Part shown: positions 5,666 to 23,868 of the stretch, piece after piece
Layout of the letters: every line of letters begins with the position of its first letter
Numbering within the stretch: the first letter of the stretch is position 1
NCBI GenBank assembly: GCA_025355725.1
Contig: JANXZC010000158.1
Coordinates: 2,714 to 66,713 of the forward strand
Direction of reading: 5' to 3'
Length of the DNA stretch: 64,000 nt
Origin: Syntrophus sp. (in: bacteria)
GTDB taxonomy: Bacteria > Desulfobacterota > Syntrophia > Syntrophales > UBA8958
The notes under the pieces: generated by a model
Databases searched by the model: none
Told to the model about the DNA's origin: nothing
What the model saw: only the letters and a program-made list of their open reading frames with translations
Position numbers and translations under genes: made by a program

Positions 5666-6499
5666 TCAGGTCATCTCTTTAAGTTTAGCTCCTGCTTCCC
5701 ATTGTTCCGCTTCGAGGAGATCTTTATCCGTTTTGTAGATCGTACTCGTATCGGCCCCATCCCACCTGGCTTCATGCATCAGGACGGCATGCATGTCCGC
5801 ATACGTCAGTTCTGCCTGGGAAAAATCTGCTCCTTTTACTATGGCGTGAGAGAAATTGGTGTAAGGCAAACGGGCCCGCACGAATTGTGCCCCTGTACAA
5901 TCCCCTTTAATAAAAAGGGATTGGGCGAGGGAGGCGTCCGCAAAGTTGGATACTTTGAGTTTCGCTTCCGTGAAATTGGACATAGGCAGGTTTGCCTTAT
6001 GGAAGTCCGCCTTATCTGCCTTGGCGCCGACAAAATTTACATATTTACCGTGGGCCTCCCGGAAGATTGCCCCGATCAAATTCGCCCCGGCAAAGCTCGC
6101 CTGGGTGATATCGGCACGGGAAAAATCGGCGGCTTTGAGATCTGCCTTCTCCAGGATGATCATTTTGAGGTTACAATTCAAAAACTTCTGCCCGGCCAGC
6201 TTTGCTTCCATGAAATAGGCTTTCGTCAGATCGGTTTGATGAAAAATGGCGGTGGTCATATCAGATGCGCCGGCTATCATGCGGCTTAGATTTGCCCCCG
6301 TGAAATCGGTCCCGGTTAGCAGACAGTGGTGCAGCGTAACCCGGGAAAGTGTCGCGCCCGCAAAGATGCAACCGCGAAGCGAAACATTTTCGAAAAAAGC
6401 CCCAGTAATTTCGCATCCGGAAAAATCAAGGCCCGTCAGGTCGGCGTCTTTGATTCCCCCATCTTTCCTGATCTTTTCAAGATATTCTTGTGCGCTCAT
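5666..6499 (-). CDS. pentapeptide-repeat protein
   Basis: Continuous A(D/N)LxX repeats (ADLTGLDFSGCEITGAFFENVSLRGCIFAGATLSRV...). Its ATG overlaps the upstream stop (ATGA), implying translational coupling. Confidence 0.85.
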   Translation of the reverse strand: MSAQEYLEKIRKDGGIKDADLTGLDFSGCEITGAFFENVSLRGCIFAGATLSRVTLHHCLLTGTDFTGANLSRMIAGASDMTTAIFHQTDLTKAYFMEAKLAGQKFLNCNLKMIILEKADLKAADFSRADITQASFAGANLIGAIFREAHGKYVNFVGAKADKADFHKANLPMSNFTEAKLKVSNFADASLAQSLFIKGDCTGAQFVRARLPYTNFSHAIVKGADFSQAELTYADMHAVLMHEARWDGADTSTIYKTDKDLLEAEQWEAGAKLKEMT

Positions 6500-9051
6500 A
6501 GATCCTTATTCAATGACAGCAGGGTTCTTTTGATATTTGCACCTTTGAGATTCGCTTTGTTGAGCTTCGCCTGGTAAAAATCAACACCGTAAAGGTTCGA
6601 CAACTTAAGGTCCGTCCACATCAGGCTTGCTTTGCGTAGCGAGCCTTTGAAGAGATTGATCCCCCCGAGAGTTGCCCCTTCGAGGTTTGCCTTGGCGAAT
6701 TTTGCTTCTCTGGCAATGGCCCTGGTTAAAATGGCGCCGTTTAGGTCCGCCGCTGTAAAATCTGCCCGGTCCAGCTTGGCCTCGTGCATTTGCGCCCGGG
6801 CCAGCTTCACTCCTTCCCAGGAGGCGTCTGTAAGATCAGCACGGTAAAATCGCCCGTTCGTAATTTCTGTATCTTTATCGGCCCGCGATTTTTTCAGGGA
6901 AGAGACGCTAAATGACGGTGAATCTCCCTTGACGCCAAAAAGCTTGATTCCGTCGGCCCGGACTTGGAAAAACGACGCATGTGATATCTGCGCTCCCGTA
7001 AGATCCGCTTCGCTGAGATCTGCTTCATCGAACTTGGTCTCACTGAGATCAGCCCCGGCAAACAGGGATCTGGGGGCCTTCGCTTTTACGCATTCCGCTT
7101 CCGTCATGATTGCCTTTTCGAATACGGCTTCGGTCATCGTGGCTCCCGTAAGATTCACGGCGGTAAAATCCGATGCCGTAAAATCACCCCCGGTCAGATC
7201 GGCCCTTTGCATAGAAGCCTTCACAAACTTTGCCTTCCCGGAACTGGCATGATTAAACAAGGCATCATCCATGACGGCTTCGCTGAAATCGGTTTCCGTC
7301 ATCAAGGCGCCGGTAAAACTGGCGCCCGCGAGTTTTGACTTCTTAAAGATGGCCCGCTCAAGGATAGAGTTCGAAAAGTCAGCCCCCGGCATCACCTGAC
7401 CGGAAAAGTCAATTCCCGTCAGGTCAAGGTTGCCCAAAGGTTCTCCCTGCCAGTACTTTGCCAGAACGTATTCCAGGGTCACGGCTGCCTCTGCCTGGGG
7501 AGGGACCGGCAACTCCGGGGGAGGGGCTTGAGCTGCTTGCGCGGCCTCGGCTGCCGCCTGCTTCTCAAGGTTGCCCAGGGAGGTCAGGGATTCGTGAACA
7601 AGCTTTTCCGTTTCCTTGAGCTGGGCCTCGATTTCCGGTTTGTGAAAGCCTCCCTTCCTGAGTCCGGCGATGATCTCGTCGGCGGATTTCAAAGGCGCCT
7701 CGGGCTTCGGCGCCATGATTTTCTCAACGTCGGCGGTAGTAAGGCCGAATTTTTTCATAAAATCGGCGGTCTGCTTTTCCAGGGCGGCAACAGCCGTTCC
7801 CAGGTCGGAAAGTGACCCTGTCGCCGCCCTCGCTTCGACAGGGGAAAACTGCCTGACCACGGCATCCGGATCGAGGCCTGCCTGCTTTAGCATTGCCGTG
7901 GTTTTGGCTTCAAATTCCTGGGTTTCCTTGAGCAGAGAAGCCAATTCCGGTTTAATCGCCGGGGCATCAGGTGGCGCCGTTACAGGGGCCGGTTTTGATT
8001 CCGGCAGCGGTTCCACCGGCGCTGCTTCCGCCTTCGCTTCCGCCGGGGTCAGTTTTTCCTCAAACATCCGGCGATATTCTTCAATGGATTTCGGTTGATC
8101 TTTGAGGGATTCCCATTGGGCATAAAAATGAAGCACATCTTCATACTCATCATCTGCCACGGCGACAGTGCCGCGATAGAGGAGAATGCCAATCTCCCGG
8201 TCGGGAAAGAGCCATAGCGTCTCCGCCCGGCAGGGTACTTCTTTGAAGATATCCTTTTCCCCCTCTTTCTGGTGAACGAAAAGACGACCCCGCAAGGCCG
8301 GCAGGTTTGATTTGATTACCGGCTTCCGGGGGTGCATATTGCGGATTTCCACCTTTTCGTCGCCGTTAAAGAACCCGGCGAGGCGCTGATCCTCCGGGGC
8401 GGCGTTGAAATATTCCCAGTCCGTATCCTTGGGGAAATGGGGCCAGTCTTCAAGCAACCACTTTTGATCCACCTTACCCAAATAGCCAAGCCGCTGGGGC
8501 CACGTCAGCGGGTAGGCAGTGAAACCGGCCGGTTTGGGTCTGTCTCCGGGAGAGCTCATGAGCTGACGGGGATCCTGAACATTGGGGAGCGGGGTTTTCC
8601 CCGTGCCATCGTGTTCCATTCCTTTCCCCAGGGGGTTCTCCGGCAGGTTCGGACCGCCGAAGGCATTTCCATAATTAATGGGCATATGGCTGAAAGGTTC
8701 GGGGTCCTGCGCCCCTGCCAGGCTCCAGTGGTGGTTTCCGAAAATGGCCAGGGTCTTGGATAAATTTCCGACGCGAACATGTACTTCCAGACCATGAACA
8801 GGCTTTGGCGCAAAGCCGGAACCATAAACGAGATATTCCCCGTGCACCTTGGGGACGCCGAAGTCGAAGATTTCGTCCTCATTTAAGGCCGCCCCGATAA
8901 TGGGCCACATCTCCGGCTCATCAAGGAGGCGGTTGGAAACGGATGTGTCCAGGGTGAAACAGGCGCAGGCAGCGATGGAAAGGCAGGCCCTTTTATCAAT
9001 AAAGCAGCTTTTGAAAAGGAGACCAAGATTTTGCGGTTTGATAATCTTCAT
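6496..9051 (-). CDS. DUF2169-domain protein fused to a Pro/Ala/Glu-rich linker and a C-terminal pentapeptide-repeat domain (T6SS accessory/adaptor family)
   Basis: The N-terminus MKIIKPQNLGLL... and PAGFTAYPLTWPQRLGYLGKVDQKWLLEDWPHFPKDTDWEYFNAAPEDQR match the DUF2169 pattern. The C-terminal ~300 aa are A(D/N)LxX repeats. The gene sits directly downstream of vgrG. Confidence 0.8.
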   Translation of the reverse strand: MKIIKPQNLGLLFKSCFIDKRACLSIAACACFTLDTSVSNRLLDEPEMWPIIGAALNEDEIFDFGVPKVHGEYLVYGSGFAPKPVHGLEVHVRVGNLSKTLAIFGNHHWSLAGAQDPEPFSHMPINYGNAFGGPNLPENPLGKGMEHDGTGKTPLPNVQDPRQLMSSPGDRPKPAGFTAYPLTWPQRLGYLGKVDQKWLLEDWPHFPKDTDWEYFNAAPEDQRLAGFFNGDEKVEIRNMHPRKPVIKSNLPALRGRLFVHQKEGEKDIFKEVPCRAETLWLFPDREIGILLYRGTVAVADDEYEDVLHFYAQWESLKDQPKSIEEYRRMFEEKLTPAEAKAEAAPVEPLPESKPAPVTAPPDAPAIKPELASLLKETQEFEAKTTAMLKQAGLDPDAVVRQFSPVEARAATGSLSDLGTAVAALEKQTADFMKKFGLTTADVEKIMAPKPEAPLKSADEIIAGLRKGGFHKPEIEAQLKETEKLVHESLTSLGNLEKQAAAEAAQAAQAPPPELPVPPQAEAAVTLEYVLAKYWQGEPLGNLDLTGIDFSGQVMPGADFSNSILERAIFKKSKLAGASFTGALMTETDFSEAVMDDALFNHASSGKAKFVKASMQRADLTGGDFTASDFTAVNLTGATMTEAVFEKAIMTEAECVKAKAPRSLFAGADLSETKFDEADLSEADLTGAQISHASFFQVRADGIKLFGVKGDSPSFSVSSLKKSRADKDTEITNGRFYRADLTDASWEGVKLARAQMHEAKLDRADFTAADLNGAILTRAIAREAKFAKANLEGATLGGINLFKGSLRKASLMWTDLKLSNLYGVDFYQAKLNKANLKGANIKRTLLSLNKDL

Positions 9052-9072
9052 ATCTGTCTCTACAGTCGTCCT

Positions 9073-11778
9073 CTATCCCAATTGAATGATACCGGTGGGG
9101 TCGATTGAAAGCGGACCGGCGTGCAGGTTTGCACCCAGGAAATTAAGCTTGATCCCGGTCTGCGAGCTCACACTGATATAATCGTTACCATGCTGGATCT
9201 TTATATCGTTGGCCGAGGCCACCACTTTTCCTCCTGCCGGCTGCTGTTCCATAGTGGCATCGGCGGCGGCCAAGGTTATTTTCCCTCCCCCGTTCTTTTG
9301 AATAACCACATTGGCACTGGTAACCTTAACGCTGTTGGCGGCGGGTAGCTGCTCAAGAGCCACCCCCTGGGCATCAACGGTAATCTTGCCCCCGGCCTGC
9401 TCCTTCTGAATAGTGATGCTTTCGTTGATTCCCGGGGTCATCTTGATGGAAGATGTCGGCGTAGCCATCACGGGACCGATCAGCAACTGGATGCCGTTAT
9501 TGTATGCAAGCTGAGCACTGTAGGGGCTGGCGTAAACTTTGATTCCCGTGTCATTCATCTCAATTTTGCTGATAGCGTTTGTGAGTTCGGTGCTCAGCTT
9601 ATTAACCAGATACGCCAGAGCGGCCACCTGCGCAGCCGCTCCCACCGCGATGGGTGCCATGCTTACCCCCATCTGCTTCATGGCCGCAACACCGCTCTCC
9701 TCATCGGGATAAGCGGCGCTGGCAATGTCACCGCCAAAGGCGGCCAGAAGGGCTCCCACCGCGGCACCGCCAAAGATCAGGGTTTTCTGCAGCGTGGACA
9801 GCACGGCCTTATCAGCAGGAAGAAGACCGGCGGAAATCACTACTTCTTCCGTGCCCAGCAGATCGTCTTTATCCTTGATGGTCTCTTTGGTCTTCCCGAA
9901 TTCGACGTGATGGCCTGCTTTGCACTCAATAGTCCCCGCCCATTCGAAAACGCTCTTCATGGCCATGGTGAACTCCGAGGCCGTCCCCACCATAAGTTCC
10001 GACTTAGAACCGATGGTCACATAGTTCTCCGAACCGATAACGATTGAGTCTTCCTGTCCCATGACCACTTCATGCTTGTTACCCGACGACTTGACGTGAA
10101 ACGCCCCTTCATCCTCTCCCCCCTTGCCTATATAGATACCATGGCCCTGCTTTCCAAAGGGGCTGAAGAGATAAATGTATTCCTCCCCCGTGGTATCGTC
10201 CATGACAATTTGATTGCCACCGGGGGTCTTGATTACGTGCTGTTTAGGATTTTTATCCGTAACCACGTTGAAGTCCTGGGAGTTGAAAACGGCACCGCTG
10301 ATGACGGGGAGATCGGGGTCGCCGTCCCGGAAGGAGAGGACAACCTCCGCCCCCTTGTGCAACGGGAAATTCATACCGTGAGTCTTGTCGCTCGTCCCGG
10401 CGAAAGGGCTCGCCATCCGCACATGATAAGAACTCGTACTCTTCCCCCACTTATTGCTGAAATCGTCACCCCCCTCCTCCGGCGCAAAAGGAAGCCTGAC
10501 CTTGTAGCGGCCCAGGGTCGGATCGATGTCCGGCGTCTCCGTAGACAGATCCCCGTCGATAACTGCATTCATAGTCGCGTGGATCTTTGGCTTGGGCGTC
10601 AGGCGCTGGGATCGGAACTGCACCGCTGCCGGAATCATCGTGAAGGTATTGTTATATTGAAATTCCTCCTCAACCCCCGTTAGCGGCTGTTGGCCCTCAT
10701 GTGCGGCATGGATGATCAGGTAATCACCGGAAAAGGTCTGACCGGGATCGTCAATGGTAATCAAAGTCCCGGGGATCAGGCCCGGCCCTGAAGCCATACC
10801 GTAATAAACCTTGGTCTGGCAGAATATCTCCTCGGCCCTGATCCCGGCCAGAGTCTGACCTTCCTCGGCAGTACTGAAATTCTCCCCATAAATGGTCTGC
10901 ACCCTGCCCGAGACATCGGTCGCAGAGCCTACATCCGCCGATGCCGACATGGTCCCCATCCCCGCCGTATTGTAATTGTAATTCCTCAAGATCACCTTCG
11001 CCGGAAAGGCCGCCTGATGCATGATCATGGTAAATATCGTCTCCGGCGCCGGGCCGGCGCCGGGAGTACCCACAGCCTTGTACTGCAACGTCTTCGTCGC
11101 CGGGGGATGGGATATTCTCGTATCCGTAATTACCATCTTTTCCGGCATCACATCCTGCAAACTATCATGCCAGGTCTGGTCCTGTTCAAAATAATAATAG
11201 ACCCCTTCCCTCTCCATCAGGCGCTGAAGAAAATTGAGGTCGCTCTCTTCATACTGACACACATAGGACCAGCGATTGTATCCCCCCAGCAACGGATCAT
11301 AATGGGTCCCCGTCAACTTCAGCTCATAGTCGAGAGAAGTAAAGCCGTTATCCTTCATAACGCCATCAATGATAGCACCAAACGCCTTCCCAACATAAAT
11401 GTCCGAGCGTGTATTGAGGTAAAGAAGAAACATCTTCGAGCGAAGCCGGAGCTCATACTGAGTGTAATCGCCCACCCTCTGGATCTGACGAAACTCCGTG
11501 ACGATGCCGTGATAGTAGGAAAAATGATTTTGAACAACCATGCATAATACGGCCGGTCGCAGCAGCACCTCCCCGAGCAAGGCCGGTATATTGTCCGTCG
11601 TGGAACGGAGAGTGACATAAAAATCATAAACAAAGGAAAGATTCTCATCCCCTGTAAACTTGACCACATCGAACTCCGGCTTGACCGTATCCTTGTCGTT
11701 ATAGATGAAGCTGAAGGTGAAATAATCATCCGGAGCTCCGCTAACGTCTGTCAAATTGTCCCACTTGTCCTCTTCCAT
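9073..11778 (-). CDS. vgrG: type VI secretion spike protein VgrG (TssI) with an extended C-terminus
   Basis: gp27-like region (YVCQYEESDLNFLQRLMEREGVYYYF), gp5 OB-fold (HVRMASPFAGTSDKTHGMNFPLHKGAEVVLSFRDGDPDLPVISGAVFN) and beta-helix repeats. GGGAGA lies upstream of the ATG. Confidence 0.9.
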   Translation of the reverse strand: MEEDKWDNLTDVSGAPDDYFTFSFIYNDKDTVKPEFDVVKFTGDENLSFVYDFYVTLRSTTDNIPALLGEVLLRPAVLCMVVQNHFSYYHGIVTEFRQIQRVGDYTQYELRLRSKMFLLYLNTRSDIYVGKAFGAIIDGVMKDNGFTSLDYELKLTGTHYDPLLGGYNRWSYVCQYEESDLNFLQRLMEREGVYYYFEQDQTWHDSLQDVMPEKMVITDTRISHPPATKTLQYKAVGTPGAGPAPETIFTMIMHQAAFPAKVILRNYNYNTAGMGTMSASADVGSATDVSGRVQTIYGENFSTAEEGQTLAGIRAEEIFCQTKVYYGMASGPGLIPGTLITIDDPGQTFSGDYLIIHAAHEGQQPLTGVEEEFQYNNTFTMIPAAVQFRSQRLTPKPKIHATMNAVIDGDLSTETPDIDPTLGRYKVRLPFAPEEGGDDFSNKWGKSTSSYHVRMASPFAGTSDKTHGMNFPLHKGAEVVLSFRDGDPDLPVISGAVFNSQDFNVVTDKNPKQHVIKTPGGNQIVMDDTTGEEYIYLFSPFGKQGHGIYIGKGGEDEGAFHVKSSGNKHEVVMGQEDSIVIGSENYVTIGSKSELMVGTASEFTMAMKSVFEWAGTIECKAGHHVEFGKTKETIKDKDDLLGTEEVVISAGLLPADKAVLSTLQKTLIFGGAAVGALLAAFGGDIASAAYPDEESGVAAMKQMGVSMAPIAVGAAAQVAALAYLVNKLSTELTNAISKIEMNDTGIKVYASPYSAQLAYNNGIQLLIGPVMATPTSSIKMTPGINESITIQKEQAGGKITVDAQGVALEQLPAANSVKVTSANVVIQKNGGGKITLAAADATMEQQPAGGKVVASANDIKIQHGNDYISVSSQTGIKLNFLGANLHAGPLSIDPTGIIQLG

Positions 11779-11829
11779 ATGATCTCCCTAACAAAGATGA
11801 CCTTCGTTGTGATTACAAATACATCCAAT

Positions 11830-12225
11830 TCATCCCATGATCATGACCTTGTTCTGGCTCGGCGCCAGCACGGAACCTACGGCATTGCCGTCGTTCTGTT
11901 TGGTCATATTGCCGAGAAATACGGCCGGATTGCCCTCCAATTTCACCTTTGTACTCCCCATAACGAATTCCGCGGGCCCCATGATCTTGCCGGAGACAGC
12001 TCCCTGGTTGACGCCTCCCTCATCACCGTTCGTAGGCGATATCTTCGAGGCCTTCGTCAGTGCGGGCATGCCATTGATCAAGACCTTGGTGGTGACCGGG
12101 TTGCCCATCTGGGGCATGCCGGTGTTGGGGTAGGGGGTCGGAATGGGCGGGGCCGGCGGGGCCGGGGTAAGGCAGACATCAGGCATGGCCATGAGCTGCC
12201 CATTTTCTTTGGTAACGGCAAACAT
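11830..12225 (-). CDS. DUF4150 PAAR-like spike-tip protein
   Basis: PDVCLTPAPP..PIPTPYPNTG...TKVLINGMPALTKASKISPTNGDEGGVNQGAVSG...GSTKVKLEGNPAVFLGNMTKQNDGN fits the DUF4150/PAAR-like pattern. It has a strong AGGAGA RBS and no C-terminal toxin extension. Confidence 0.72.
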   Translation of the reverse strand: MFAVTKENGQLMAMPDVCLTPAPPAPPIPTPYPNTGMPQMGNPVTTKVLINGMPALTKASKISPTNGDEGGVNQGAVSGKIMGPAEFVMGSTKVKLEGNPAVFLGNMTKQNDGNAVGSVLAPSQNKVMIMG

Positions 12226-12243
12226 GATATGATTTCTCCTAGG

Positions 12244-12900
12244 CTAACCGATGTGTATCTTCTTACCGTCGATAGTAACTTCCTCTTCCGAGATCAGGGA
12301 GGCATGGCCCGCCTTGACGGAGAAGCGATCCTTAACTATTGTCCGGATTCTGCCGGCCCTGATCTGTTCCAAATTTTCGATCCAGCGGAAACTGTCCCGG
12401 ACCCGCTCTGTGACTCTCCCGACTACGCTGTCAAGGATATCGATAACCTGAACGGACTTTTTGCTCCGCACCTCCATGATACTCGCCAGGAGGGAGCAGG
12501 CCGCAAAACGGACCTTCCCGGAGATACCGGTAATTTCAATATCCGGCGCTTCCAGGGCAACGCTTTTGTCACCACGAACAATAACGTTATCTGCCTGAAG
12601 CTTTAGCGGTCCCGTTTCCGTCCGCAGGCTGGCCTCCCCAGGAAATACCATCTCATAACATGTCCCGACTTTATCCAGAACCATCAGGATGTAGCCGCCT
12701 GCGGCGGCATCAGCGGTTATCAGCACCCGATCCCCAGTGTCCGGTTGAAGGAGACATCCCTCCGCCTTGCGCACCCAGAGGGATGCCCCGTCGTCAGTAT
12801 CAATCCGATAACGATCCTCGTCCCATTCCATTACCAGGCCATAGGCCAGGGATACAGGCCAAACAGTTACATTCTTTCTCAATACGGCAACATTTGTCAT
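12244..12900 (-). CDS. DUF3540-like protein, first gene of the vgrG island
   Basis: I chose the ATG at 12900, preceded by AAGAGG; the track start at 12921 is a TTG. The motif AEGCLLQPDTGDRVL...GGYILMVLDK and its position next to DUF4150/VgrG/DUF2169 match my recollection of DUF3540 neighbourhoods. The family call is context-driven. Confidence 0.5.
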   Translation of the reverse strand: MTNVAVLRKNVTVWPVSLAYGLVMEWDEDRYRIDTDDGASLWVRKAEGCLLQPDTGDRVLITADAAAGGYILMVLDKVGTCYEMVFPGEASLRTETGPLKLQADNVIVRGDKSVALEAPDIEITGISGKVRFAACSLLASIMEVRSKKSVQVIDILDSVVGRVTERVRDSFRWIENLEQIRAGRIRTIVKDRFSVKAGHASLISEEEVTIDGKKIHIG

Positions 12901-13250
12901 GGCGATACCTCTTTCCCGCAAAAAAGATTACTCCCGGCTCATCGGACGCATCTCATTATTTTCGGATGACCTGGAGAGGTATCCAAAAGGTTCCGTCTCC
13001 AAGAGCACGGGGAGTATAAAGAAATCCATCTCTCATGTCAAAATTATTTAAAGTCCAACTTAATATTAGCATGGCGTCGCACCTCATATTTTACGGTCAA
13101 TATCTCATTGACACATCGGGCAGTCCATCGTATGTTTTCAAAACTCATGCCCACTCTTACCCTCCTAGTAAAAGGAAGAGAAAGGGTTCATTATCCGCTA
13201 GTATTCATGGTGGATAGCCGTCATGGGGATGACGAAAATCTCCCGTAACC

Positions 13251-13294
13251 CCTCTTTCTCCAAAGAGGTGATATCCCCCCTCTGACAAAGAGGG
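13251..13294. repeat. pair of short GC-rich hairpins in the divergent intergenic region
   Basis: CCTCTTT-ctcc-AAAGAGG (13251-13268) and CCCTCT-gacaa-AGAGGG (13278-13294) lie ~45 nt upstream of the channel gene ATG. Confidence 0.6.
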
Positions 13295-13338
13295 ACTTAG
13301 GGGGGGTTGATGCGCATTTTCCGGTGAAAGGGTGACCG

Positions 13339-14505
13339 ATGTTAAAGCGGATTTTGATACCAATCCTATGTTTCGTGGTTATCCAGACGGGCCTTTTGAT
13401 CATGGATGCCGGATGGACGCCTGCGTCGGCCGCTGGGAAAAAGCTCATCGTCGGCATTGCCAATGATCCGCCTTATACTTTCAAGAACGAGCAAGGGCAG
13501 TGGACCGGAATAACGGTTGATCTCTGGCGACATATCGCCCAGGACTTGAAACTGGATTATTCGCTGAAGGAGATGACTCAGGAAGAAGTCCTGGATTCAC
13601 TTCAGAACGGCTCTATAGATTTATCGGCCGACGCCGTTATCATCACCTCGCAACGGGAACAGCGTTTTGAGTTTACCGTGCCCATTGCCAGCACGCGCGT
13701 AGCCGTGGCAACCCTTTACGACAAGGAAGATCACCCATGGCTGGCAGCCCTGAAGATATTCTTTTCCTGGGGTACTTTGAAGATTATCATTGTCCTGCTG
13801 ATGATACTGCTTTTACTTGGATTTCTCTTTTGGCGTATCGAGAAGAAGGGCAACCCCGAACACTTTGGAGAAGGGCTGATCCGGGGTATTGGTTCCGGCA
13901 TTTACTGGGTGGGCTCGACCATGACATCAGGCGTCTGTTTCGGAGTCAGCTTGAAATCTGTCAGCGGCCGGGTATTGGGTCTCTTTTGGATGCTGATCTG
14001 CGCCCTGGCTTTGAGCGCCTTTATTGCATCCCTCAGCTCTTCCCTTACCACGCATCATCTCAGTGAAACAAAATTCGGCATCGATAAGCTGAGAAGAATG
14101 CACTTGGGGACAGAAGCAGGGTCGGTGCCTCATTCCATTGTCGAGAAAATTGGCAGCCGGACAACATTTATAAAGGGCGGTGAAGAGGATGTATTAAAAG
14201 AACTCATCAATAAAAAAATTGACGGCTTCCTTTACGATGAGGCAACGCTGCATTATTACGCAGAGGGGAAATACCGGGGAATCATAACCGTGCACCCGAC
14301 CAGCCTGAAAGAGATCGTTATTGCCTTTGGAATGCCCCACAACAGCCCGCTGCGGAAACCGATCAACATATCGCTGTTAAAGCTTCTCGATGAACCGGTG
14401 TGGGAATCCATCCTCAGCCGTTATGGCCTGGATAGTAATTTCGAAGCAAGGCACATTGTAATCGGCAGGGAAAAGAAACATAAAACCTTGAAAAGCGACG
14501 AATAA
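13339..14505 (+). CDS. GluR0-type channel: family-3 solute-binding domain split by a two-TM pore-loop ion-channel module
   Basis: Signal/TM, then SBP lobe 1 (KKLIVGIANDPPYTFKNEQGQWTGITVDLWRHIAQDL...IITSQREQRFEFTVP), TM (IIIVLLMILLLLGFLFW), pore-loop-like IYWVGSTMTSGVCFG, TM (VLGLFWMLICALALSAFIASL), and SBP lobe 2 (LGTEAGSVPH...IDGFLYDEATLHYY...IAFGMPHNSPLRKPINISLLKL). Confidence 0.65.
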   Translation: MLKRILIPILCFVVIQTGLLIMDAGWTPASAAGKKLIVGIANDPPYTFKNEQGQWTGITVDLWRHIAQDLKLDYSLKEMTQEEVLDSLQNGSIDLSADAVIITSQREQRFEFTVPIASTRVAVATLYDKEDHPWLAALKIFFSWGTLKIIIVLLMILLLLGFLFWRIEKKGNPEHFGEGLIRGIGSGIYWVGSTMTSGVCFGVSLKSVSGRVLGLFWMLICALALSAFIASLSSSLTTHHLSETKFGIDKLRRMHLGTEAGSVPHSIVEKIGSRTTFIKGGEEDVLKELINKKIDGFLYDEATLHYYAEGKYRGIITVHPTSLKEIVIAFGMPHNSPLRKPINISLLKLLDEPVWESILSRYGLDSNFEARHIVIGREKKHKTLKSDE

Positions 14506-14516
14506 GGACAAATACC

Positions 14517-16133
14517 ATGAAGACAATCCCCCCGCCCTACACAATTCTTGCGCTAGGTCCTTTTTGCCCCGTCCCGGAGACGGGATTTTCTTTGAAGATC
14601 ACCCCCGTAGAAACCACGGCTCTTCAGGAGGCTTTTAGTGAATTGTCACCCCGGCTCTGGATTCCGGCACCCACGGACATCTGCCCGCCCGGGGGGCTGA
14701 CCCTGCAACCGTCCGGGATAAGAGACCTCACCCCGGACGGCCTGATCCGGACGACACCCTATCTCAAGGATCTCTGCGACGCCGGGGAATTGATCGCCAA
14801 GGGCCACAGCAGCGGCGCCACCCCGGCTGATATCGCCGCCCAGGTGCAGTCCGCCTGGCCCCATCTTCCCTTGGACCTTTCCATTCCCACCGTATCTGCG
14901 CATGGGCAACAGGCAACCCGCCTCGACAGCGCCGTCGACGATATCCTCTCCATGGTGGCCATGCCCGATGGACCAGATCAGGGAGCGCCAAGGAGCGCGG
15001 GAGGTCCTGCGGAGTGGAAAAGGAATCTTGATGACCTCTTGTCGGCAAATATCGCCTGTATCTTCGGAAGCAAAGACTTCCGAGCCTTTGAAGCGACCTG
15101 GCGGGGGGCGGAATGCCTCATCCGCCGGGGCGGTGTTAAGGAAGGGGGGAAGATCGTATTGAAAATCGTCCCGGTCTCGGCAGAGAGCCTTTCCGGGACC
15201 TTGGAATCCCTGGCAATCGAACTTGCTGCGGACACCCCCGACCTTATCCTCATCGACCTGCCCCTGGACAACACCCCCGGGGGCGTCGAGACACTGGGGA
15301 AAATCGCCGCCTTTGCGGCTACACTGCTCATCCCGGCGACAACATGGATTACCCCCGCTTTTTTCCATCTTGATAACTGGCGGGATCTGCACCGCCTTGC
15401 CTATCTCAAAAACCATCTGGACGACGCCGTCTATGCCAAGTGGCGCAAACTCAGGGAACAACCGTCGGGGCAGTGGCTGACCATGACCTGCAACCGTTTT
15501 CTTACCCGCCCTCCCTATGGAGAAGACAACCGCCCCCGCTCCGTCGCCTTCACGGAGCAGGAACTCCTGTGGATCAGTCCGGTATGGGCACTGGGAACCC
15601 TGGCTGCTCAGAGCGTCAACCAGTTTGGCTGGCCATCGCGCCTGAGCGACTACATGCGCATACGCATGAAGGATCTTGCCGTGTCAGTCCAAGGTGATGA
15701 CACAGCTTCGCCCACCGAGGCGGTCTTCCCGGACGACCGGATTCGGCAGTTTGTGGAAATCGGCATCACACCCCTGGCGGGGGCGCCGGGGCAGGACACG
15801 GCCTTCATGCCCAAGGCAGCCGTCGCCTCCGGCGAATCCCTTCTTTCCCAAATGTTCCTTTCCCGGATCATCGGTTTTCTCATCAGGTTGCGGGAGGCCT
15901 ACGAGCAAAGCGACAGGGAAACGGAACCGATAAGTTTCGTCACCGAGGCCCTGATGGCCTTTTTTGAAGCAACGGGACAGGAACCGCCGGACGACCTGTT
16001 GGTAGCCGTCGGCGCCCACCCTGAAGGACACAAGCAGGAGGAAGAGGCAACGCTGCCCCTGGATATTACCTTCACTCCTCCGAAGGCGGTGTCCCCGGAT
16101 TCCCGAAATCTGGCCTTCACCTTTTCCTGGTAG
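14517..16133 (+). CDS. fused TssB-like / TssC-like contractile-sheath homologue (single 538-aa polypeptide)
   Basis: Residues 1-100 follow the VipA/TssB pattern (YTILALGPF..., LKITPVETTALQEAF, LTLQPSGIRDLTPDGLIRTTPYLKDL). From about residue 175 the sequence tracks VipB/TssC block by block: FRAFEATWRGAECLI (cf. FQAMESAWRGLKLFV), VYAKWRKLREQPSGQWL, CNRFLTRPPYG (cf. APRFLLRVPYD), LLWISPVWALGTLAAQSVNQFGW, SPTEAVFPDDRIRQFVEIGITPL, and SQMFLSRIIGFLIRL. Confidence 0.65.
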   Translation: MKTIPPPYTILALGPFCPVPETGFSLKITPVETTALQEAFSELSPRLWIPAPTDICPPGGLTLQPSGIRDLTPDGLIRTTPYLKDLCDAGELIAKGHSSGATPADIAAQVQSAWPHLPLDLSIPTVSAHGQQATRLDSAVDDILSMVAMPDGPDQGAPRSAGGPAEWKRNLDDLLSANIACIFGSKDFRAFEATWRGAECLIRRGGVKEGGKIVLKIVPVSAESLSGTLESLAIELAADTPDLILIDLPLDNTPGGVETLGKIAAFAATLLIPATTWITPAFFHLDNWRDLHRLAYLKNHLDDAVYAKWRKLREQPSGQWLTMTCNRFLTRPPYGEDNRPRSVAFTEQELLWISPVWALGTLAAQSVNQFGWPSRLSDYMRIRMKDLAVSVQGDDTASPTEAVFPDDRIRQFVEIGITPLAGAPGQDTAFMPKAAVASGESLLSQMFLSRIIGFLIRLREAYEQSDRETEPISFVTEALMAFFEATGQEPPDDLLVAVGAHPEGHKQEEEATLPLDITFTPPKAVSPDSRNLAFTFSW

Positions 16134-16256
16134 AGGCCGGAAAGGCATCGCAATCTTGTATTGTTTAACAATTCTATATCATTGGTTAATTACGATTAAA
16201 CAAAAAATAGCCCTTTCGAAGAGGGCACAAAGCCTGTGAAATAAGGAGGTCTCGAC

Positions 16257-17033
16257 ATGAAAAAGATCTGGATCAGCGCCTTGGAAAAGGACCAGGAAAA
16301 GGTCCAAAAGATTATGAGTGTGGTCAAGACTTATGGGCTGGCCGTGGATGGGCATTTCTGGCTGGATGACCTGACGAAGATGGCCTGGGACAGCGCCCTG
16401 GAACCTCTTGCTGCCAAGGATACGGCCATGTGGATAATTATCGGCGCAGAGGCCTCATGGCAAACTCTTTCCATCCGGCAAGGACTTTCTCTCCTTGCCC
16501 TTGCCGTTCAACATCAAAAAGGGTTGGGGTTTCCAATCCTCATTGTCCCCACGGAGGGAACAATCGATCCGGAAACGCTTCCCACCCTCTTCCGGGGCGC
16601 AGAGGTTATTCCCTTCGCCACGGCAACGCTGGGACCAAAGATCGTGGCCCTGGCCAATCGGCCTGTAATATCCCTTGATCCGGGATACCGCCTCAATCTC
16701 CACGCCCTCCATGGCATCGGCCTGTGGTTCGAGGTGGGCCCGCCGAAGGACATCCCCTGGGACGGCGCCATGTTCGGCGTCCACGGGGCGGATATCGACG
16801 TCCACGGCGTCGGTCCGGCGGACGGGATTCCTGCCCGAACCGTCCTGGAGTACGCCATGAAGGGCATGAAGGTTACCCTTGGGGAGGAGGAGTTTAACGC
16901 CTGGGCCGCCCAGAATCACCTCGACGGAACCATGTCCTATTACGTCAGGGTCCAGGGCGTCCCCGACAAACTGCTCTTCGGTCCTTATGCCGCCTCCGAC
17001 GATGCGGAGGTCCATATCGTCGCCCTGACTTGA
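16257..17033 (+). CDS. hypothetical protein (258 aa), no family recognised
   Basis: Strong RBS (AAGGAGG 7 nt upstream). The N-terminal ~130 aa alternate beta/alpha (KKIWISALEKDQEKVQKIMSVVKTYGLAVDGHFW...WIIIGAE...PILIVP), and the C-terminal ~120 aa are beta-rich. The strand and codon style match the upstream sheath-like gene. Confidence 0.55.
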   Translation: MKKIWISALEKDQEKVQKIMSVVKTYGLAVDGHFWLDDLTKMAWDSALEPLAAKDTAMWIIIGAEASWQTLSIRQGLSLLALAVQHQKGLGFPILIVPTEGTIDPETLPTLFRGAEVIPFATATLGPKIVALANRPVISLDPGYRLNLHALHGIGLWFEVGPPKDIPWDGAMFGVHGADIDVHGVGPADGIPARTVLEYAMKGMKVTLGEEEFNAWAAQNHLDGTMSYYVRVQGVPDKLLFGPYAASDDAEVHIVALT

Positions 17034-17140: not shown

Positions 17141-17851
17141 TCAGCGAGGGGCTTTATGGTATCCCGCCCGGATCGCCGCCGTCTCGGAATCAAACTCGAC
17201 GCGGTGATAAGCCTCGACCTTATGGTAATATTTCATCCCCGGCAGATGATACCGCTTGCTGTCCCGGTTCCCGACAACCTTCTCCTTCCTTACGACAGCC
17301 GGAGCCGGAGATTTGACTGCCGCCCGCGGGACTTCGGCCTTGACCACCTCAATTTTAACGGCCCTATCCCGGAGGGGATGGAAATAAAAAATAATGCCGG
17401 ACAGAAACACAAAGAAGAAAACGAACGAGGCGACGCTTGTGAAAAAAAGACGGTACTTGCGAAAAAAGCCGGCTTCCTTCACAGAGGAGAGAACCGACGG
17501 GGGGAGGGTATATGAGGGGGCGACGACGGGTGGGGGCAGAGGATCTTCAATAACTTCGGGAAGACACGCTTCAACGGCTTCGGGCAGGCAGTGCCTGACG
17601 GGCTGAGACTCGAAACGTTTCAGGGCCTCCTCCTCATCGATAAGGAGATAACGGCAATAGCTCTTGAGATAATCGGGGACGGCCTTTTTATCCGGGAAGG
17701 CAGCCTGGTCATCGGCTTCCAGTGCCACAAGGAGAGGCAGGCTGATCTTCGTAGCCTTGGAAACGGCTGTCAGCTTGATCTCCCGGGCTTCCCGCTCTCT
17801 GCGCAGATAGGTCCCCAGCGTCTCTCTCTCTTTCTTATCCATAGCCGTCAT
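17141..17851 (-). CDS. membrane-anchored helix-turn-helix (RodZ/Xre-like) protein with a small C-terminal Ada-N/'sunset'-like domain
   Basis: N-terminal HTH region (LGTYLRREREAREIKLTAVSKATKISLPLLVALE), a single TM (FFTSVASFVFFFVFLSGIIFYF), and a C-terminal KRYHLPGMKYYHKVEAYHRVEFDSETAAIRAGYHKAPR. I moved the start to the ATG at 17851; the track start at 17875 is a GTG. Confidence 0.55.
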   Translation of the reverse strand: MTAMDKKERETLGTYLRREREAREIKLTAVSKATKISLPLLVALEADDQAAFPDKKAVPDYLKSYCRYLLIDEEEALKRFESQPVRHCLPEAVEACLPEVIEDPLPPPVVAPSYTLPPSVLSSVKEAGFFRKYRLFFTSVASFVFFFVFLSGIIFYFHPLRDRAVKIEVVKAEVPRAAVKSPAPAVVRKEKVVGNRDSKRYHLPGMKYYHKVEAYHRVEFDSETAAIRAGYHKAPR

Positions 17852-17979
17852 CCTCGATATTCCTTCATAACACACCCCCCGGTCCTTGACAATACGAATG
17901 TCCCTTCCTTCCTGCTGTCCTTTTTCCTTGACACCTCGTCATCCGTTCATTATCCTCACTCCCGGGGAATGATAAAATC

Positions 17980-18867
17980 ATGGTAAAGTGTTCACTTCTA
18001 TTATTAACAATTATGATCTGCTTCCTGGCGGGCTGTGGACCGGGAAAGATTGTCGTTAAGACCGACGACAAACAGTTATCCCGGGATTACAAGATCCATG
18101 ACGAAATTATTCCCGCCAACCCCGGCGTCTTTCCCGAGAATCAGCCCTGGCAAACCGTAAATGCCAATCTGAGAAGAAAAGTATATTTCAACGACCGACA
18201 GACAATCGTCCTCAATGAGGCGACCAAAACGAGTACGGGCAAGGATGTGAAGACCCAGTATCATTATCACGAGCTTTCCGGATACGTACTCAGCGGCAAT
18301 CTGCTCATCAGGATCGACAAGAACGTCCAGAATATCGGGCCGGGAGGGGTCTTTATCATCCCTTCCAATGTTCATTACGCCGTGCTTCCCCTCGATGGCA
18401 AGGTCTCCTACCTGGAGATATTTACACCCACCCGGGATGACCTTCGCAGCCTTCCCATTCTCCCGCGTTTCGACGAAAACGACGTGAAAAGCGTGATCTA
18501 CAAGTGGTACGCCTATCTGGACAAGCTGGCCAATGTGGATAATTACCTGCCCTTGCTGGCAAACAGAGGCCTGGTCATGCGTAATCCCGGAGCTGTTATT
18601 CGCAATCAGGAAGATTTCAAGGCCTGGTATGCGGGAATGCTCAAGAAGACTAAAACCAATACCAGCAAGGTTAAAAATGTTGTCGTCAAGCTCGACGAAA
18701 AAGGCTATTTTATTGCGGAATTCATTGTGTCCTGGGACGCCATCACCTCTCTTGATGAAAAAAGGACTTTTACCTCCCGTCAGAAATGGACCCTCGTTGA
18801 TCAGGGCGGGACAACTCCCGTCATTCTGGACACGGATTACCAAGAAACCAGCAACATCGTGCCGTGA
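17980..18867 (+). CDS. lipoprotein with a cupin domain and an NTF2/SnoaL-like C-terminal domain
   Basis: Lipobox LAGC (MICFLAGCG). Cupin-like core YHYHELSGYVLSGNLLIRID...GPGGVFIIPSNVHYAV. The C-terminal half resembles NTF2-like folds (WYAYLDKL...FIVSWDAI). Confidence 0.55.
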   Translation: MVKCSLLLLTIMICFLAGCGPGKIVVKTDDKQLSRDYKIHDEIIPANPGVFPENQPWQTVNANLRRKVYFNDRQTIVLNEATKTSTGKDVKTQYHYHELSGYVLSGNLLIRIDKNVQNIGPGGVFIIPSNVHYAVLPLDGKVSYLEIFTPTRDDLRSLPILPRFDENDVKSVIYKWYAYLDKLANVDNYLPLLANRGLVMRNPGAVIRNQEDFKAWYAGMLKKTKTNTSKVKNVVVKLDEKGYFIAEFIVSWDAITSLDEKRTFTSRQKWTLVDQGGTTPVILDTDYQETSNIVP

Positions 18868-18952
18868 CGACGGCGCCGATCTCCCGAATTTAAGCTTCTG
18901 TCTTCAAAAAACGTGAGAAATATGCATCAGTGAAACAAAAGGAGGATAAACA

Positions 18953-19345
18953 ATGCAAGAAAAAGCAAAACGCACCGTCATTTTATCTTTGGTTGGAATA
19001 TTCACAATTTTCGCCCTGACCTATCTCTGTCCGACCGCGGTCAACGCCCATGCCCCGCAAAAGGTCCTGCTGGCCTACGATGAAGTGACCAAAACACTTA
19101 GTGTTACGGTCACCCACACGCGCTTCTCTGAGGGCCACTATATCGAGAGGGTAGTGATCAAGAAGAACGGAACAGTCGTGGCTACGCAGGATTACAAAAG
19201 CCAGCCCTCGGAAACATTTACCTATACCTACAAGATTGATGCAGTCAACGGCGATACCCTGGACGTTAAGGCCTCATGCAGCAGGTTCGGTTCCACATCC
19301 GAAAAAATTACCGTTGGGAAGGATCCAAGCAAAACTCCCAAATAA
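18953..19345 (+). CDS. exported small beta-sandwich protein, distantly desulfoferrodoxin/neelaredoxin-like
   Basis: Strong RBS and a signal/anchor segment. HAPQKVLLAYDEVTKTLSVTVTHTRFSEGHYIERVVIKKNG...LDVKASCSRFG mirrors the SOR pattern (H.P...V.V.H....HYI..I...ng......C..HG), but the last His ligand is absent. Confidence 0.35.
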   Translation: MQEKAKRTVILSLVGIFTIFALTYLCPTAVNAHAPQKVLLAYDEVTKTLSVTVTHTRFSEGHYIERVVIKKNGTVVATQDYKSQPSETFTYTYKIDAVNGDTLDVKASCSRFGSTSEKITVGKDPSKTPK

Positions 19346-19373
19346 TCGAACATACCTCTGACAAAAAGAGTGA

Positions 19374-19778
19374 ATGGAAATGTCAACCTTCTATATCCAT
19401 GTCTTTTTCATGACCGCAGGATTGCTGGCAATGACCGCAGGGGTCAGCGTTGCCAGATTCCTGCGGCGGAAGCAATGGTGGCTGAAGATACATCGCACTG
19501 CGGGAATCACCGGGGCGGTGTGCCTTAGCGCCGGATTTGCGGCAGCCGTCGTCATGGTTTCCCAATCCGGAGACGGACAATTCAAGGTCCCCCATGCCTG
19601 GTTGGGCCTGGCAACAGTTCTTTGCGCGGTTGCCGCGCCCACCCTGGGGCATCTCCAATTTAAAATTCGCTCAAAAATCCAGCAACTCCGCCTCTGGCAC
19701 CGACGGACCGGATATGCAGCCCTGATCCTGACCCTGTTATCGGTGCTGTCGGGACTGTTTGTCGCCGGGATAATTTAA
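19374..19778 (+). CDS. four-TM membrane protein with a conserved His in each helix (cytochrome-b-like)
   Basis: There are four hydrophobic helices, each containing His: YIHVFF..., KIHRTAG..., VPHAWLG...LGHLQF, and LWHRRTG.... The gene starts 28 nt after the preceding gene. Confidence 0.5.
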   Translation: MEMSTFYIHVFFMTAGLLAMTAGVSVARFLRRKQWWLKIHRTAGITGAVCLSAGFAAAVVMVSQSGDGQFKVPHAWLGLATVLCAVAAPTLGHLQFKIRSKIQQLRLWHRRTGYAALILTLLSVLSGLFVAGII

Positions 19779-23748: not shown

Positions 23749-23868
23749 CTGTTGTGGCAAGGGATGTCCCTTTTCGTTTGAAATGCCCGTCACATAAGCA
23801 GGGATCACCGTCCGGCGCGCCTGAGGTATTTTTGAAGGAGAATTCATAAAAATATGGGAGGTTATACA

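What the first reader, a model, noticed from the sequence alone, without database searches (positions are those of the whole stretch)
13339..14505. GluR0-architecture ligand-gated channel apparently co-transcribed with the sheath homologue
**What the sequence shows**
- The ORF is a periplasmic family-3 binding protein split by a TM / pore-loop / TM insert. This is the S1-M1-P-M2-S2 layout of prokaryotic glutamate-receptor channels.
- The pore loop IYWVGSTMTSGVCFG (about nt 13900-13945) aligns with the K+-channel signature region (FWWAVVTMTTVGYGD) but lacks the TVGYG filter. Selectivity is therefore probably altered.
- Its stop is 11 nt from the ATG of the TssB-TssC fusion gene, on the same strand, with only a weak AAGGA between them.

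**Why it matters**
- An extracellular-ligand-gated ion channel coupled to a contractile-sheath-like protein is not an arrangement I know of.
- It suggests signal-gated control, for example ion-flux-triggered assembly or firing.
Basis: partly seen in the sequence, partly recalled or inferred. Interest (0 to 1): 0.65.

Follow-up and report, generated by a model that had tools for sequence, protein, structure and literature searches.

The report
Bacterial glutamate-receptor-type channel beside sheath paralog
The gene is a genuine bacterial relative of animal glutamate-receptor ion channels and very probably shares an operon with an unusual fused secretion-system sheath protein, but the pairing occurs only in a narrow group of uncultured Syntrophales and was cleanly deleted in the closest relative, so a working link between the two is unproven.

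Summary
ORF 13339-14505 (+) is a family-3 solute-binding domain split by an M1/pore-loop/M2 insert. Lig_chan scores above Pfam's cut-off, and the model matches AMPA-receptor LBD-TMD chains at E about 1e-18.

The pore lacks TVGYG. It is iGluR-like (…MTSGVCFG… aligns to GluA …MQQGC-D…), which places it in the known "Group 2" prokaryotic iGluRs.

The next gene starts 11 nt after the stop and is a real single-chain TssB+TssC sheath paralog (here "SH").

The proposed functional coupling is weakly supported:
- Among about 130 SH loci, the channel lies directly upstream only in the window's shallow clade (SH at least 75% identical).
- The closest relative removed the channel by a 1033-bp deletion between GGGAAAA repeats and kept promoter, SH and orf258.
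- The nearest channel relatives (73% and 66% identity) have unrelated neighbours.
- SH always sits 15-50 nt behind whatever gene precedes it. Its conserved partners are T6SS genes and orf258.

One caveat remains. In a sister Syntrophaceae clade, non-orthologous channels and a soluble binding protein also flank SH-orf258.

Verdict: new member of a known channel kind in a lineage-specific operon, of moderate interest.

The parts
13108..13136 (+). Promoter-like site (TTGACA-17-TATGTT) about 200 nt upstream of the channel ATG. It faces a divergent promoter-like site for the minus-strand operon at 13041-13013.
   Evidence: Consensus scan, (10/12 and 11/12 matches; 8 sites found against 2.7 expected in the region). 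The region is conserved in L001 and L002. It is a consensus match only, not shown to be functional.
13194..13320 (+). Structured insertion of about 127 nt in the 5' leader of the channel gene. It is present in the window and L001 and absent in L002.
   Evidence: Alignment. Fold energy -57.3 kcal/mol, z = -2.4. Single copy in the window and the loci. No Rfam match.
13339..14505 (+). Prokaryotic iGluR (GluR0 architecture, 'Group 2' pore), 388 aa. Signal peptide nt 13339-13434; S1 13441-13728; pre-M1 and M1 13735-13842; P-helix and filter 13876-13959; M2 13960-14064; S2 14080-14430.
   Evidence: Pfam; PDB sequence hits; family alignment; AlphaFold model with pLDDT 78; Foldseek matches to AMPA LBD-TMD at E 1e-18; hydropathy.
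13435..13441 (+). Upstream copy of the GGGAAAA direct repeat. It is the left breakpoint of the natural 1033-bp deletion seen in L001/L060.
   Evidence: The repeat spacing is 1033 nt, equal to the deletion size.
14468..14474 (+). Downstream copy of the GGGAAAA direct repeat (right breakpoint of the deletion).
14504..14516 (+). Junction between the channel and SH genes: AAGGA (14504-14508) overlapping the TAA stop, and an 11-nt spacer before the ATG at 14517.
   Evidence: Sequence. Conserved in L001-L005.
14517..16133 (+). SH: a single-chain TssB+TssC sheath paralog, 538 aa. TssB-like residues 7-121, a disordered linker at about 122-162, then a TssC-like part.
   Evidence: Pfam VipB and TIGR03355 at 91 bits, far below the 271.5 cut-off. 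PDB profile search. AlphaFold model pLDDT 86. Foldseek matches to TssC/VipB at E 1e-19.
16257..17033 (+). orf258: a conserved protein of unknown family and the most constant neighbour of SH across lineages.
   Evidence: No Pfam, NCBIfam or PDB hit. Found next to SH in loci of many lineages.
5666..12921 (-). Divergent operon, a Class III Tvp-type VgrG spike accessory module: TvpC/DUF3540 (12244-12921), PAAR-like DUF4150 (11830-12225), VgrG (9073-11778), TvpAB with DUF2169 plus pentapeptide repeats (6496-9051), and TvpB pentapeptide protein (5666-6499).
   Evidence: Pfam and NCBIfam. The class definition is from PMC13373197.
17141..19778 (.). Genes that recur with SH-orf258 in relatives: an HTH_25 plus sunset-domain protein (17141-17875, minus strand), a cupin lipoprotein (17980-18867), a 130-aa protein (18953-19345) and a cytochrome b561-like membrane protein (19374-19778).
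   Evidence: The same set surrounds SH beside a complete T6SS core cluster in L053/L054. The cupin gene follows SH in Syntrophorhabdus loci.

Best explanation
The ORF encodes a genuine prokaryotic ionotropic glutamate-receptor homologue, exported by a signal peptide.

How it probably works:
- A periplasmic bilobed amino-acid-binding clamshell (S1/S2) keeps the Arg (R106) and Asp (D300) that hold the alpha-carboxylate and alpha-amino groups of an amino acid.
- The clamshell is wired to an inner-membrane M1/P-loop/M2 pore.
- By analogy with GluR0 and iGluRs it most likely forms tetramers that open when an amino acid binds in the periplasm.
- Its filter is iGluR-like (…STMTSGVCFG…, M2 …LSAFIASLSSSL…) and not TVGYG. 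I therefore infer cation conductance that is not K+-selective.

Operon context:
- In this genome the gene heads an operon: promoter-like site at 13108, then channel, SH, orf258.
- This gene order is a recent, lineage-specific arrangement and not a conserved functional pair.
- SH is a T6SS accessory paralog. Elsewhere it is always the tightly spaced downstream member of whatever T6SS operon precedes it (ClpV, or VgrG-Tvp-PAAR).
- In the window's clade that upstream module lies inverted, so the channel gene now supplies the upstream position and probably the promoter.

Shown: architecture, fold, pore type, spacing, distribution of the pairing, and the natural deletion. Inferred: tetramer, ligand class, selectivity, co-transcription, and promoter capture.
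For: Channel identity:
- Lig_chan is above the gathering cut-off and SBP_bac_3 is split by the insert.
- The best PDB sequence hit is a bacterial iGluR ligand-binding domain, 2pyy, with the motifs ITxxRE…F and DxxxxD aligned.
- The transmembrane insert alone hits only iGluRs.
- The model matches AMPA LBD-TMD chains over about 375 columns, E 1e-18, TM-score up to 0.67.
- 28 of the 40 invariant family columns lie in residues 132-232, the pore module, so it is under strong constraint.
- Ger et al. 2010 define this filter-less 'Group 2' and the Arg/Asp ligand pair (PMC2950845).

Operon:
- The 11-nt spacer carries an AAGGA, with no terminator-like or promoter-like site between the genes.
- The junction is conserved across the clade.

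Pairing is lineage-specific:
- A channel lies directly upstream of SH only in L002-L005 and L061-L067, where SH is 75-95% identical to the window's.
- L001/L060 (SH 95% identical) carries a 1033-bp deletion between GGGAAAA repeats. It leaves a 39-codon remnant and keeps the leader, SH and orf258.
- About 110 other SH loci have no channel or binding-protein gene within 6-10 kb.
- SH follows ClpV or PAAR at 15-50 nt in L009 and L053-L058.
- The nearest channel relatives outside the clade, P0016 (73%) and P0017 (66%), and also P0027, P0073 and P0106, have unrelated neighbours.
Against: - No transcript data exist, so co-transcription is inferred from spacing alone.
- No electrophysiology exists. 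Ligand, stoichiometry and selectivity are inferred by homology at 16-18% identity to the solved receptors.
- Lig_chan is only 1.8 bits above its cut-off.
- The 'recent accident' reading is challenged by a sister Syntrophaceae clade. L009 has a channel overlapping the orf258 stop. L007 has two tandem channels after orf258 and a soluble SBP_bac_3 protein 39 nt upstream of SH. L055 has the same soluble protein.
- Those channels belong to different subfamilies from the window's (46-53% identity; L009's is 70-72% identical to the unlinked P0106). This suggests repeated recruitment and not inherited synteny.
- The neighbour-joining trees are unbootstrapped.
Confidence: 0.68

Rival explanations
1. 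Real functional coupling, the first reader's idea restricted to Syntrophaceae. Periplasmic amino-acid sensing by iGluR-type channels (and a soluble binding protein) feeds, through ion flux or membrane potential, into the SH-orf258 module of the T6SS. Selection therefore keeps such sensors next to it.
For: - Binding-protein-fold genes flank SH-orf258 in three different arrangements within one family-level clade: channel upstream (window clade); channel or channels directly after orf258 (L007, L009; in L009 the ORFs overlap); and a soluble binding protein 39 nt upstream (L055, L007).
- The linked channels are not each other's closest relatives, and each has a closer unlinked relative. This looks like repeated recruitment.
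- The tight junction is conserved in the clade.
Against: - The pairing is absent from about 110 other SH loci. These include L053/L069, which group nearest the window clade in an unbootstrapped neighbour-joining tree of SH proteins and where SH sits beside a complete T6SS core.
- It was deleted in nature without loss of SH or orf258.
- Most channel homologues are unlinked.
- The copy number of this channel family per Syntrophaceae genome was not measured, so chance or hot-spot effects cannot be quantified.
- No mechanism connecting ion flux to sheath proteins is known, and no literature link was found.
Confidence: 0.2
2. The hydrophobic insert is only a membrane anchor or a transporter-related segment, and the protein is a tethered solute-binding or sensor protein with no ion channel function.
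For: - Lig_chan exceeds its cut-off by only 1.8 bits.
- Database names call the homologues 'ABC-type amino acid transport substrate-binding protein'.
- Ger et al. list many binding proteins with transmembrane segments that are not channels.
Against: - The insert has the M1/re-entrant P-helix/M2 layout and aligns to the GluA pore and to the SYTANLAAF-equivalent region.
- The whole model superposes on the LBD plus TMD of AMPA receptors.
- The pore module holds 28 of the 40 invariant columns, far more constraint than an anchor needs.
Confidence: 0.07
3. It is an orthologue of Synechocystis GluR0 in the strict sense, that is, a glutamate-gated K+-selective channel.
For: Same S1-M1-P-M2-S2 layout without an amino-terminal domain or M4. 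The ligand-binding domain is similar to Slr1257 (1ii5, E 6e-9).
Against: No TxVGYG and no Ion_trans_2 match. The transmembrane insert finds no K+ channel in PDB even at E up to 10.
Confidence: 0.03

Closest known systems
'Group 2' prokaryotic ionotropic glutamate receptors (Ger et al. 2010, PLoS One, PMC2950845; TCDB GIC family 1.A.10)
   Same: A signal peptide, S1 and S2 lobes of a family-3 binding protein flanking M1-P-M2, the conserved Arg (S1) and Asp (S2) ligand pair, no K+ signature, and closer to eukaryotic iGluR pores than to K+ channels.
   Different: A distinct and very conserved pore and linker signature (NPEHFG…GIYWVGST(M/L)(T/A)SGVCFG) in a Desulfobacterota/Syntrophales subfamily. 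It has not been characterised, and here it lies in an operon with T6SS accessory genes.
Synechocystis GluR0 (Slr1257), the founding prokaryotic glutamate-gated K+ channel
   Same: Overall architecture and size (about 390-400 aa), with no amino-terminal domain and no M4. The ligand-binding domains are homologous (1ii5 hit).
   Different: GluR0 carries the K+ channel signature (Group 1). This protein does not, so its selectivity is expected to differ.
Eukaryotic AMPA-type iGluRs (GluA1-4)
   Same: The best fold matches cover the LBD and TMD. The pore aligns (MQQGC-D to MTSGVCFG; SYTANLAAF to SAFIASLSS).
   Different: Only 16-18% identity. The bacterial protein has no amino-terminal domain, no M4 helix and no cytoplasmic tail.
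T6SS sheath TssB/TssC (VipA/VipB), for the downstream gene
   Same: The TssB-like and TssC-like parts are recognisable by profile and by fold. In relatives the gene lies inside or beside T6SS clusters.
   Different: The two subunits are fused in one 520-540-aa chain. It scores far below the TssC equivalog cut-off. It coexists with canonical tssB and tssC in the same cluster (L053). It is not listed among known accessory factors in a 2026 review.
Class III Tvp accessory system (VgrG-TvpAB-TvpB-TvpC-Paar1; EMBO J 2026, PMC13373197), for the divergent operon
   Same: The same domain set: DUF2169 plus pentapeptide repeats, a pentapeptide protein, DUF3540, DUF4150 and VgrG.
   Different: The gene order is permuted (TvpC-PAAR-VgrG-TvpAB-TvpB) and the module is divergent from SH instead of upstream of it.

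Membership tests
Prokaryotic iGluR / GluR0-architecture channels (GIC family) | A bilobed family-3 solute-binding ligand domain split into S1 and S2 by the channel insert | tested here: met
   SBP_bac_3 matches residues 36-362 onto profile positions 1-129, around the insert. The bacterial iGluR ligand-binding domain 2pyy aligns in two pieces, residues 36-121 and 282-362. The model shows a clamshell.
Prokaryotic iGluR / GluR0-architecture channels (GIC family) | An M1 / re-entrant P-loop / M2 pore module homologous to iGluR pores | tested here: met
   Lig_chan scores 32.6 bits against a cut-off of 30.8. The insert alone finds only iGluR chains in PDB. Foldseek matches LBD-TMD chains at E 1e-18. 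Helices lie at 144-168, 180-197 and 208-242.
Prokaryotic iGluR / GluR0-architecture channels (GIC family) | A conserved Arg in S1 and Asp in S2 that bind the amino-acid alpha groups | tested here: met
   R106 is at least 90% conserved and D300 is invariant in 30 homologues. Both align to the corresponding motifs of 2pyy. The criterion comes from PMC2950845.
Prokaryotic iGluR / GluR0-architecture channels (GIC family) | Tetrameric assembly and ligand-gated conductance | not testable with these tools
   Needs biochemistry, electrophysiology or a structure of the oligomer.
GluR0 sensu stricto / 'Group 1' glutamate-gated K+ channels | The K+ channel signature TxVGYG (Ion_trans_2-type filter) | tested here: not met
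   The filter is T-S-G-V-C-F-G, invariant in the family. There is no Ion_trans_2 hit at E up to 0.01 and no K+ channel among the PDB hits of the insert at E up to 10.
T6SS contractile sheath (TssB/TssC), downstream gene | TssB-like and TssC-like folds | tested here: met
   The profile search matches TssB chains (residues 7-121) and TssC chains (residues 130-432). Foldseek matches TssC/VipB at E 1e-19 with target TM-scores of 0.63-0.69.
T6SS contractile sheath (TssB/TssC), downstream gene | Scores as the TssC equivalog, with two separate subunits | tested here: not met
   TIGR03355 scores 91.3 bits against a cut-off of 271.5. The protein is a single fused chain. Canonical tssB and tssC are present in addition in L053/L054.
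T6SS contractile sheath (TssB/TssC), downstream gene | Encoded with the T6SS core genes (TssA, E, F, G, Hcp, ClpV) | tested here: inconclusive
   No core genes were found among the window ORFs that were scanned. In relatives SH directly follows ClpV or lies beside a full core cluster. The rest of this genome was not available.
   The upstream pairing occurs only where SH is at least 75% identical (12 loci). It is deleted in L001/L060. It is absent in about 110 other SH loci and around five channel relatives. Exception: different arrangements occur in L007, L009 and L055.
Class III Tvp VgrG-PAAR accessory system (divergent operon) | DUF2169 plus pentapeptide TvpAB, pentapeptide TvpB, DUF3540 TvpC and DUF4150 PAAR, together with VgrG | tested here: met
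   All five domain types were found at 5666-12921 on the minus strand. The definition is from PMC13373197.

The most novel reading that the evidence does not exclude
In Syntrophaceae, iGluR-type amino-acid-gated channels and a soluble relative of their ligand-binding domain may have been recruited at least three separate times next to the SH-orf258 pair, a single-chain TssB-TssC sheath paralog and its unknown partner. The reason would be that extracellular amino-acid sensing, read out as ion flux or membrane-potential change, controls assembly or firing of a T6SS-related contractile structure. That would be a prokaryotic case of a glutamate-receptor-like channel acting as the trigger of a contractile injection machine.
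Probability: 0.15. Interest if true: 0.8.

Novelty: new member of a known kind. Interest (0 to 1): 0.4.

Why it matters
Prokaryotic iGluR homologues without a K+ filter have been known from sequence since 2010, but to my knowledge almost none has a physiological role assigned.

This one belongs to a large, tightly conserved Desulfobacterota subfamily whose pore resembles the AMPA-receptor pore. That makes it a compact candidate (388 aa, no amino-terminal domain, no M4) for structural and evolutionary work on iGluR gating and selectivity.

Its operon partner may matter more. A fused TssB-TssC sheath paralog with a constant unknown partner (orf258) is spread through the T6SS loci of Desulfobacterota and Acidobacteriota, and I found no description of it.

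If the recurrent Syntrophaceae juxtaposition reflects function, it would link amino-acid sensing to a contractile machine in syntrophic bacteria. If it does not, the locus is a clear example of operon rewiring followed by gene loss.

Tried and rejected
- Riboswitch or other known RNA in the leader or junction: Rfam E-value scan of 12800-14700 gave no match.
- Terminator between the two genes: none. The only plus-strand terminator-like hairpin (14568-14593) lies inside SH codons 18-26. The number of such sites in the region (4) is below the shuffle mean (5.6). Its nucleotide conservation was not separated from coding constraint.
- The 127-nt leader insertion as a repeated mobile element: single copy in the window and in all loci fetched up to that call. 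No inverted terminal repeats were evident. Left unexplained.
- K+ channel relationship of the pore: rejected.
- The soluble binding protein upstream of SH in L055/L007 as a recent derivative of the channel: rejected. Only 23% identity over 70 residues of S1.
- T6SS core genes elsewhere in the window: none among 28 ORFs scanned.
- Function of orf258: no Pfam, NCBIfam or PDB sequence hit, even at lax thresholds. Structure-prediction jobs were exhausted.
- Literature: no paper links T6SS with iGluR-type channels. No paper describes a fused TssBC paralog. These searches cover open-access text only.
- P0016 context: the DNA was not retrievable, so only the gene table was used.
Full report
WHAT IS THERE

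The window comes from an uncultured Syntrophales bacterium. Its channel protein is 98% identical to a 'Syntrophus sp.' MAG protein, and the nearest contigs are Syntrophales MAGs.

ORF 13339-14505 (+) encodes 388 aa.
- Pfam finds SBP_bac_3 as one match spanning residues 36-362 around a large insert.
- Lig_chan covers residues 151-252 at 32.6 bits, above the gathering cut-off of 30.8.
- Lig_chan-Glu_bd is just below its cut-off. There is no Ion_trans_2 match.
- NCBIfam shows only partial, sub-threshold similarity to GlnH and other ABC-transporter binding proteins, restricted to lobe S1.

Hydropathy and the AlphaFold model (pLDDT 78) give this layout:
- an N-terminal signal peptide with an ASA|AG site;
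- S1 (residues 35-130), a pre-M1 helix and M1 (133-168);
- a re-entrant helix and loop (180-207) and M2 (208-242);
- S2 (248-364).

Foldseek places the model on the LBD-TMD chains of AMPA receptors over about 375 columns, at E about 1e-18 and TM-score up to 0.67.

THE PORE

The family alignment has 30 homologues that are 40-90% identical to the window protein.
- 28 of the 40 invariant columns fall in residues 132-232.
- The nearly invariant signature is NPEHFG…GIYWVGST(M/L)(T/A)SGVCFG…R…W…CA…SA..A.L.
- There is no TVGYG.

Searched alone against PDB, the insert finds only iGluR chains (GluA1-4, GluN1, plant GLR3.4) and no K+ channel.
- YWVGSTMTSGVCFGVSLKSVSGRVLG aligns to GluA [24 protein letters not shown].
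- LSAFIASLSSSLT aligns to ISSYTANLAAFLT.

This is the 'Group 2' type of prokaryotic iGluR described by Ger et al. 2010. That group lacks the K+ filter and is closer to eukaryotic receptors (PMC2950845). The Arg (S1) and Asp (S2) pair that the paper names as the amino-acid alpha-group ligands is present: R106 is at least 90% conserved and D300 is invariant.

I infer, but have not shown, a tetrameric channel gated by a periplasmic amino acid, conducting cations without K+ selectivity.

THE NEIGHBOUR AND THE JUNCTION

The stop at 14503-14505 is followed by 11 nt and the ATG at 14517. AAGGA overlaps the stop. No terminator-like or promoter-like site lies between the genes. A promoter-like site (13108-13136) precedes the channel and faces a divergent one.

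The downstream 538-aa protein, here called SH, is a true single-chain sheath protomer.
- Profile search matches TssB chains at residues 7-121 and TssC chains at 130-432.
- The model (pLDDT 86, pTM 0.85) superposes on TssC/VipB over about 435 columns at E 1e-19.
- It scores far below the TssC equivalog cut-off, 91 against 271.5 bits.

Other neighbours:
- The divergent minus-strand genes (5666-12921) have the domain set of a Class III Tvp VgrG-PAAR accessory module.
- No T6SS core gene was found among the window ORFs I scanned.

IS THE PAIR CONSERVED?

I collected 48 SH loci from species-representative genomes, 80 from metagenomes and 6 by exact look-up. I mapped the window's proteins onto them.

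A channel lies directly upstream of SH only in the window's own shallow clade.
- These are L002-L005 and L061-L067, with SH 75-95% identical to the window's.
- The junction sequence is conserved where I aligned it (L001-L005). The spacing is 11-15 nt in most of these loci and about 105 nt in two.

The closest relative, L001 (the same contig as L060; SH 95% identical), has lost the channel.
- A 1033-bp deletion, exactly the spacing of two GGGAAAA repeats at 13435 and 14468, leaves a 39-codon remnant.
- It retains the leader, the junction, SH and orf258.

Elsewhere the pattern is different.
- In about 110 other SH loci no channel or binding-protein gene occurs within 6-10 kb.
- There SH sits 15-50 nt behind ClpV at the end of a canonical core cluster (TssA-B-C-Hcp-E-F-G-ClpV), or behind the PAAR-like gene of a VgrG-Tvp module.
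- It is usually next to orf258, or followed by the cupin gene.
- Tight spacing is therefore SH's habit with any upstream gene, not a mark of a special tie to the channel.

Conversely, the channel's nearest relatives outside the clade have unrelated neighbours. These are P0016 (73%), P0017 (66%), P0027, P0073 and P0106.

In the more distant relatives the VgrG-Tvp module precedes SH on the same strand. In the window clade it lies inverted. I therefore infer that the channel gene now occupies the upstream slot and supplies the promoter. The L001 deletion kept that promoter region, which fits this reading.

THE CAVEAT

A sister Syntrophaceae clade complicates a pure 'accident' reading.
- L009 has a channel whose ORF overlaps the orf258 stop.
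- L007 has two tandem channels after orf258, plus a soluble 275-aa SBP_bac_3 protein 39 nt upstream of SH.
- L055 has the orthologous soluble protein, 74% identical.

These channels are not orthologues of the window's.
- They are 46-53% identical to the window's channel.
- L009's channel is 70-72% identical to P0106, which is unlinked.
- The window's channel nests among unlinked relatives in a neighbour-joining tree.

This looks like repeated recruitment of binding-protein-fold sensors next to SH-orf258 within one family, and that is hard to attribute to inherited synteny alone. I could not measure the family's copy number per genome. The trees are unbootstrapped. L053/L069, which group nearest the window clade in the unbootstrapped SH tree, have no such gene. 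I therefore give a real functional link about 0.15-0.2.

COMPARISON AND NOVELTY

The channel is a new member of a known kind: a Group 2 prokaryotic iGluR with GluR0 architecture and no K+ filter.
- It fails the defining feature of GluR0 in the strict sense.
- The channel-sheath 'system' fails the conservation test as a general entity.
- I found no literature connecting iGluR-type channels with T6SS.
- I found no description of a fused TssB-TssC paralog. It is not among the accessory factors in a 2026 review. These searches cover open-access text only.

VERDICT

- The best explanation is an amino-acid-gated, iGluR-type cation channel. It is co-expressed with a T6SS sheath paralog through a recent, lineage-specific and dispensable operon arrangement.
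- Interest is 0.4. SH-orf258 is a by-product worth its own follow-up.

Noticed in passing
window 14517-17033 (+); loci L008-L011, L014-L020, L027, L046, L053-L058, L069-L139: SH (a single-chain TssB+TssC sheath paralog of about 525 aa) and orf258 (no detectable family) form a widely conserved pair in the T6SS loci of Desulfobacterota and Acidobacteriota. They occur alongside canonical tssB and tssC. SH is always the tightly spaced gene after ClpV or after the PAAR-like gene. I found no description of it in the literature searched.
   Followed up: partly
L001 4007-4152 (the same contig as L060); window 13435-14474: A natural 1033-bp deletion between two GGGAAAA repeats removes the channel in the closest relative. 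It leaves a 39-codon signal-peptide remnant directly upstream of an intact SH gene.
   Followed up: yes
window ~13194-13320 (+): A structured insertion of about 127 nt (z = -2.4) lies in the channel's 5' leader. It is present in the window and L001 and absent in L002. It is single copy, has no Rfam match and no obvious terminal repeats.
   Followed up: partly
L055 9156-9962 and L007 9135-9962: A soluble periplasmic SBP_bac_3 protein (268-275 aa, Lig_chan-Glu_bd above its cut-off) is encoded 39 nt upstream of SH in two Syntrophaceae genomes. L007 also has two tandem GluR0-like channels after orf258.
   Followed up: partly
window 14568-14593 (+): A GC-rich hairpin followed by a T-run lies inside SH codons 18-26 and is almost invariant at the nucleotide level across the clade. 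It could be coding constraint or a pause/attenuation site. The count of such sites in the region is not above the shuffle expectation.
   Followed up: no
window 17141-19778: Four genes travel with SH-orf258 in relatives and sit beside a complete T6SS core cluster in L053/L054: an HTH_25 protein with a C-terminal 'sunset' domain, a cupin lipoprotein, a 130-aa protein and a cytochrome b561-like membrane protein.
   Followed up: partly
window 5666-12921 (-): A Class III Tvp-type VgrG-PAAR accessory module with a permuted gene order (TvpC-PAAR-VgrG-TvpAB-TvpB). L003 and L004 carry a second copy in the usual order downstream of orf258.
   Followed up: partly
window 32521-33852 (-): A 443-aa protein fuses an SBF (sodium/bile-acid symporter family) transporter to a C-terminal DsrC-like domain. 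Nearby are a four-domain rhodanese protein (23854-25725) and CCG/4Fe-4S proteins, which suggests a sulfur-trafficking locus.
   Followed up: no
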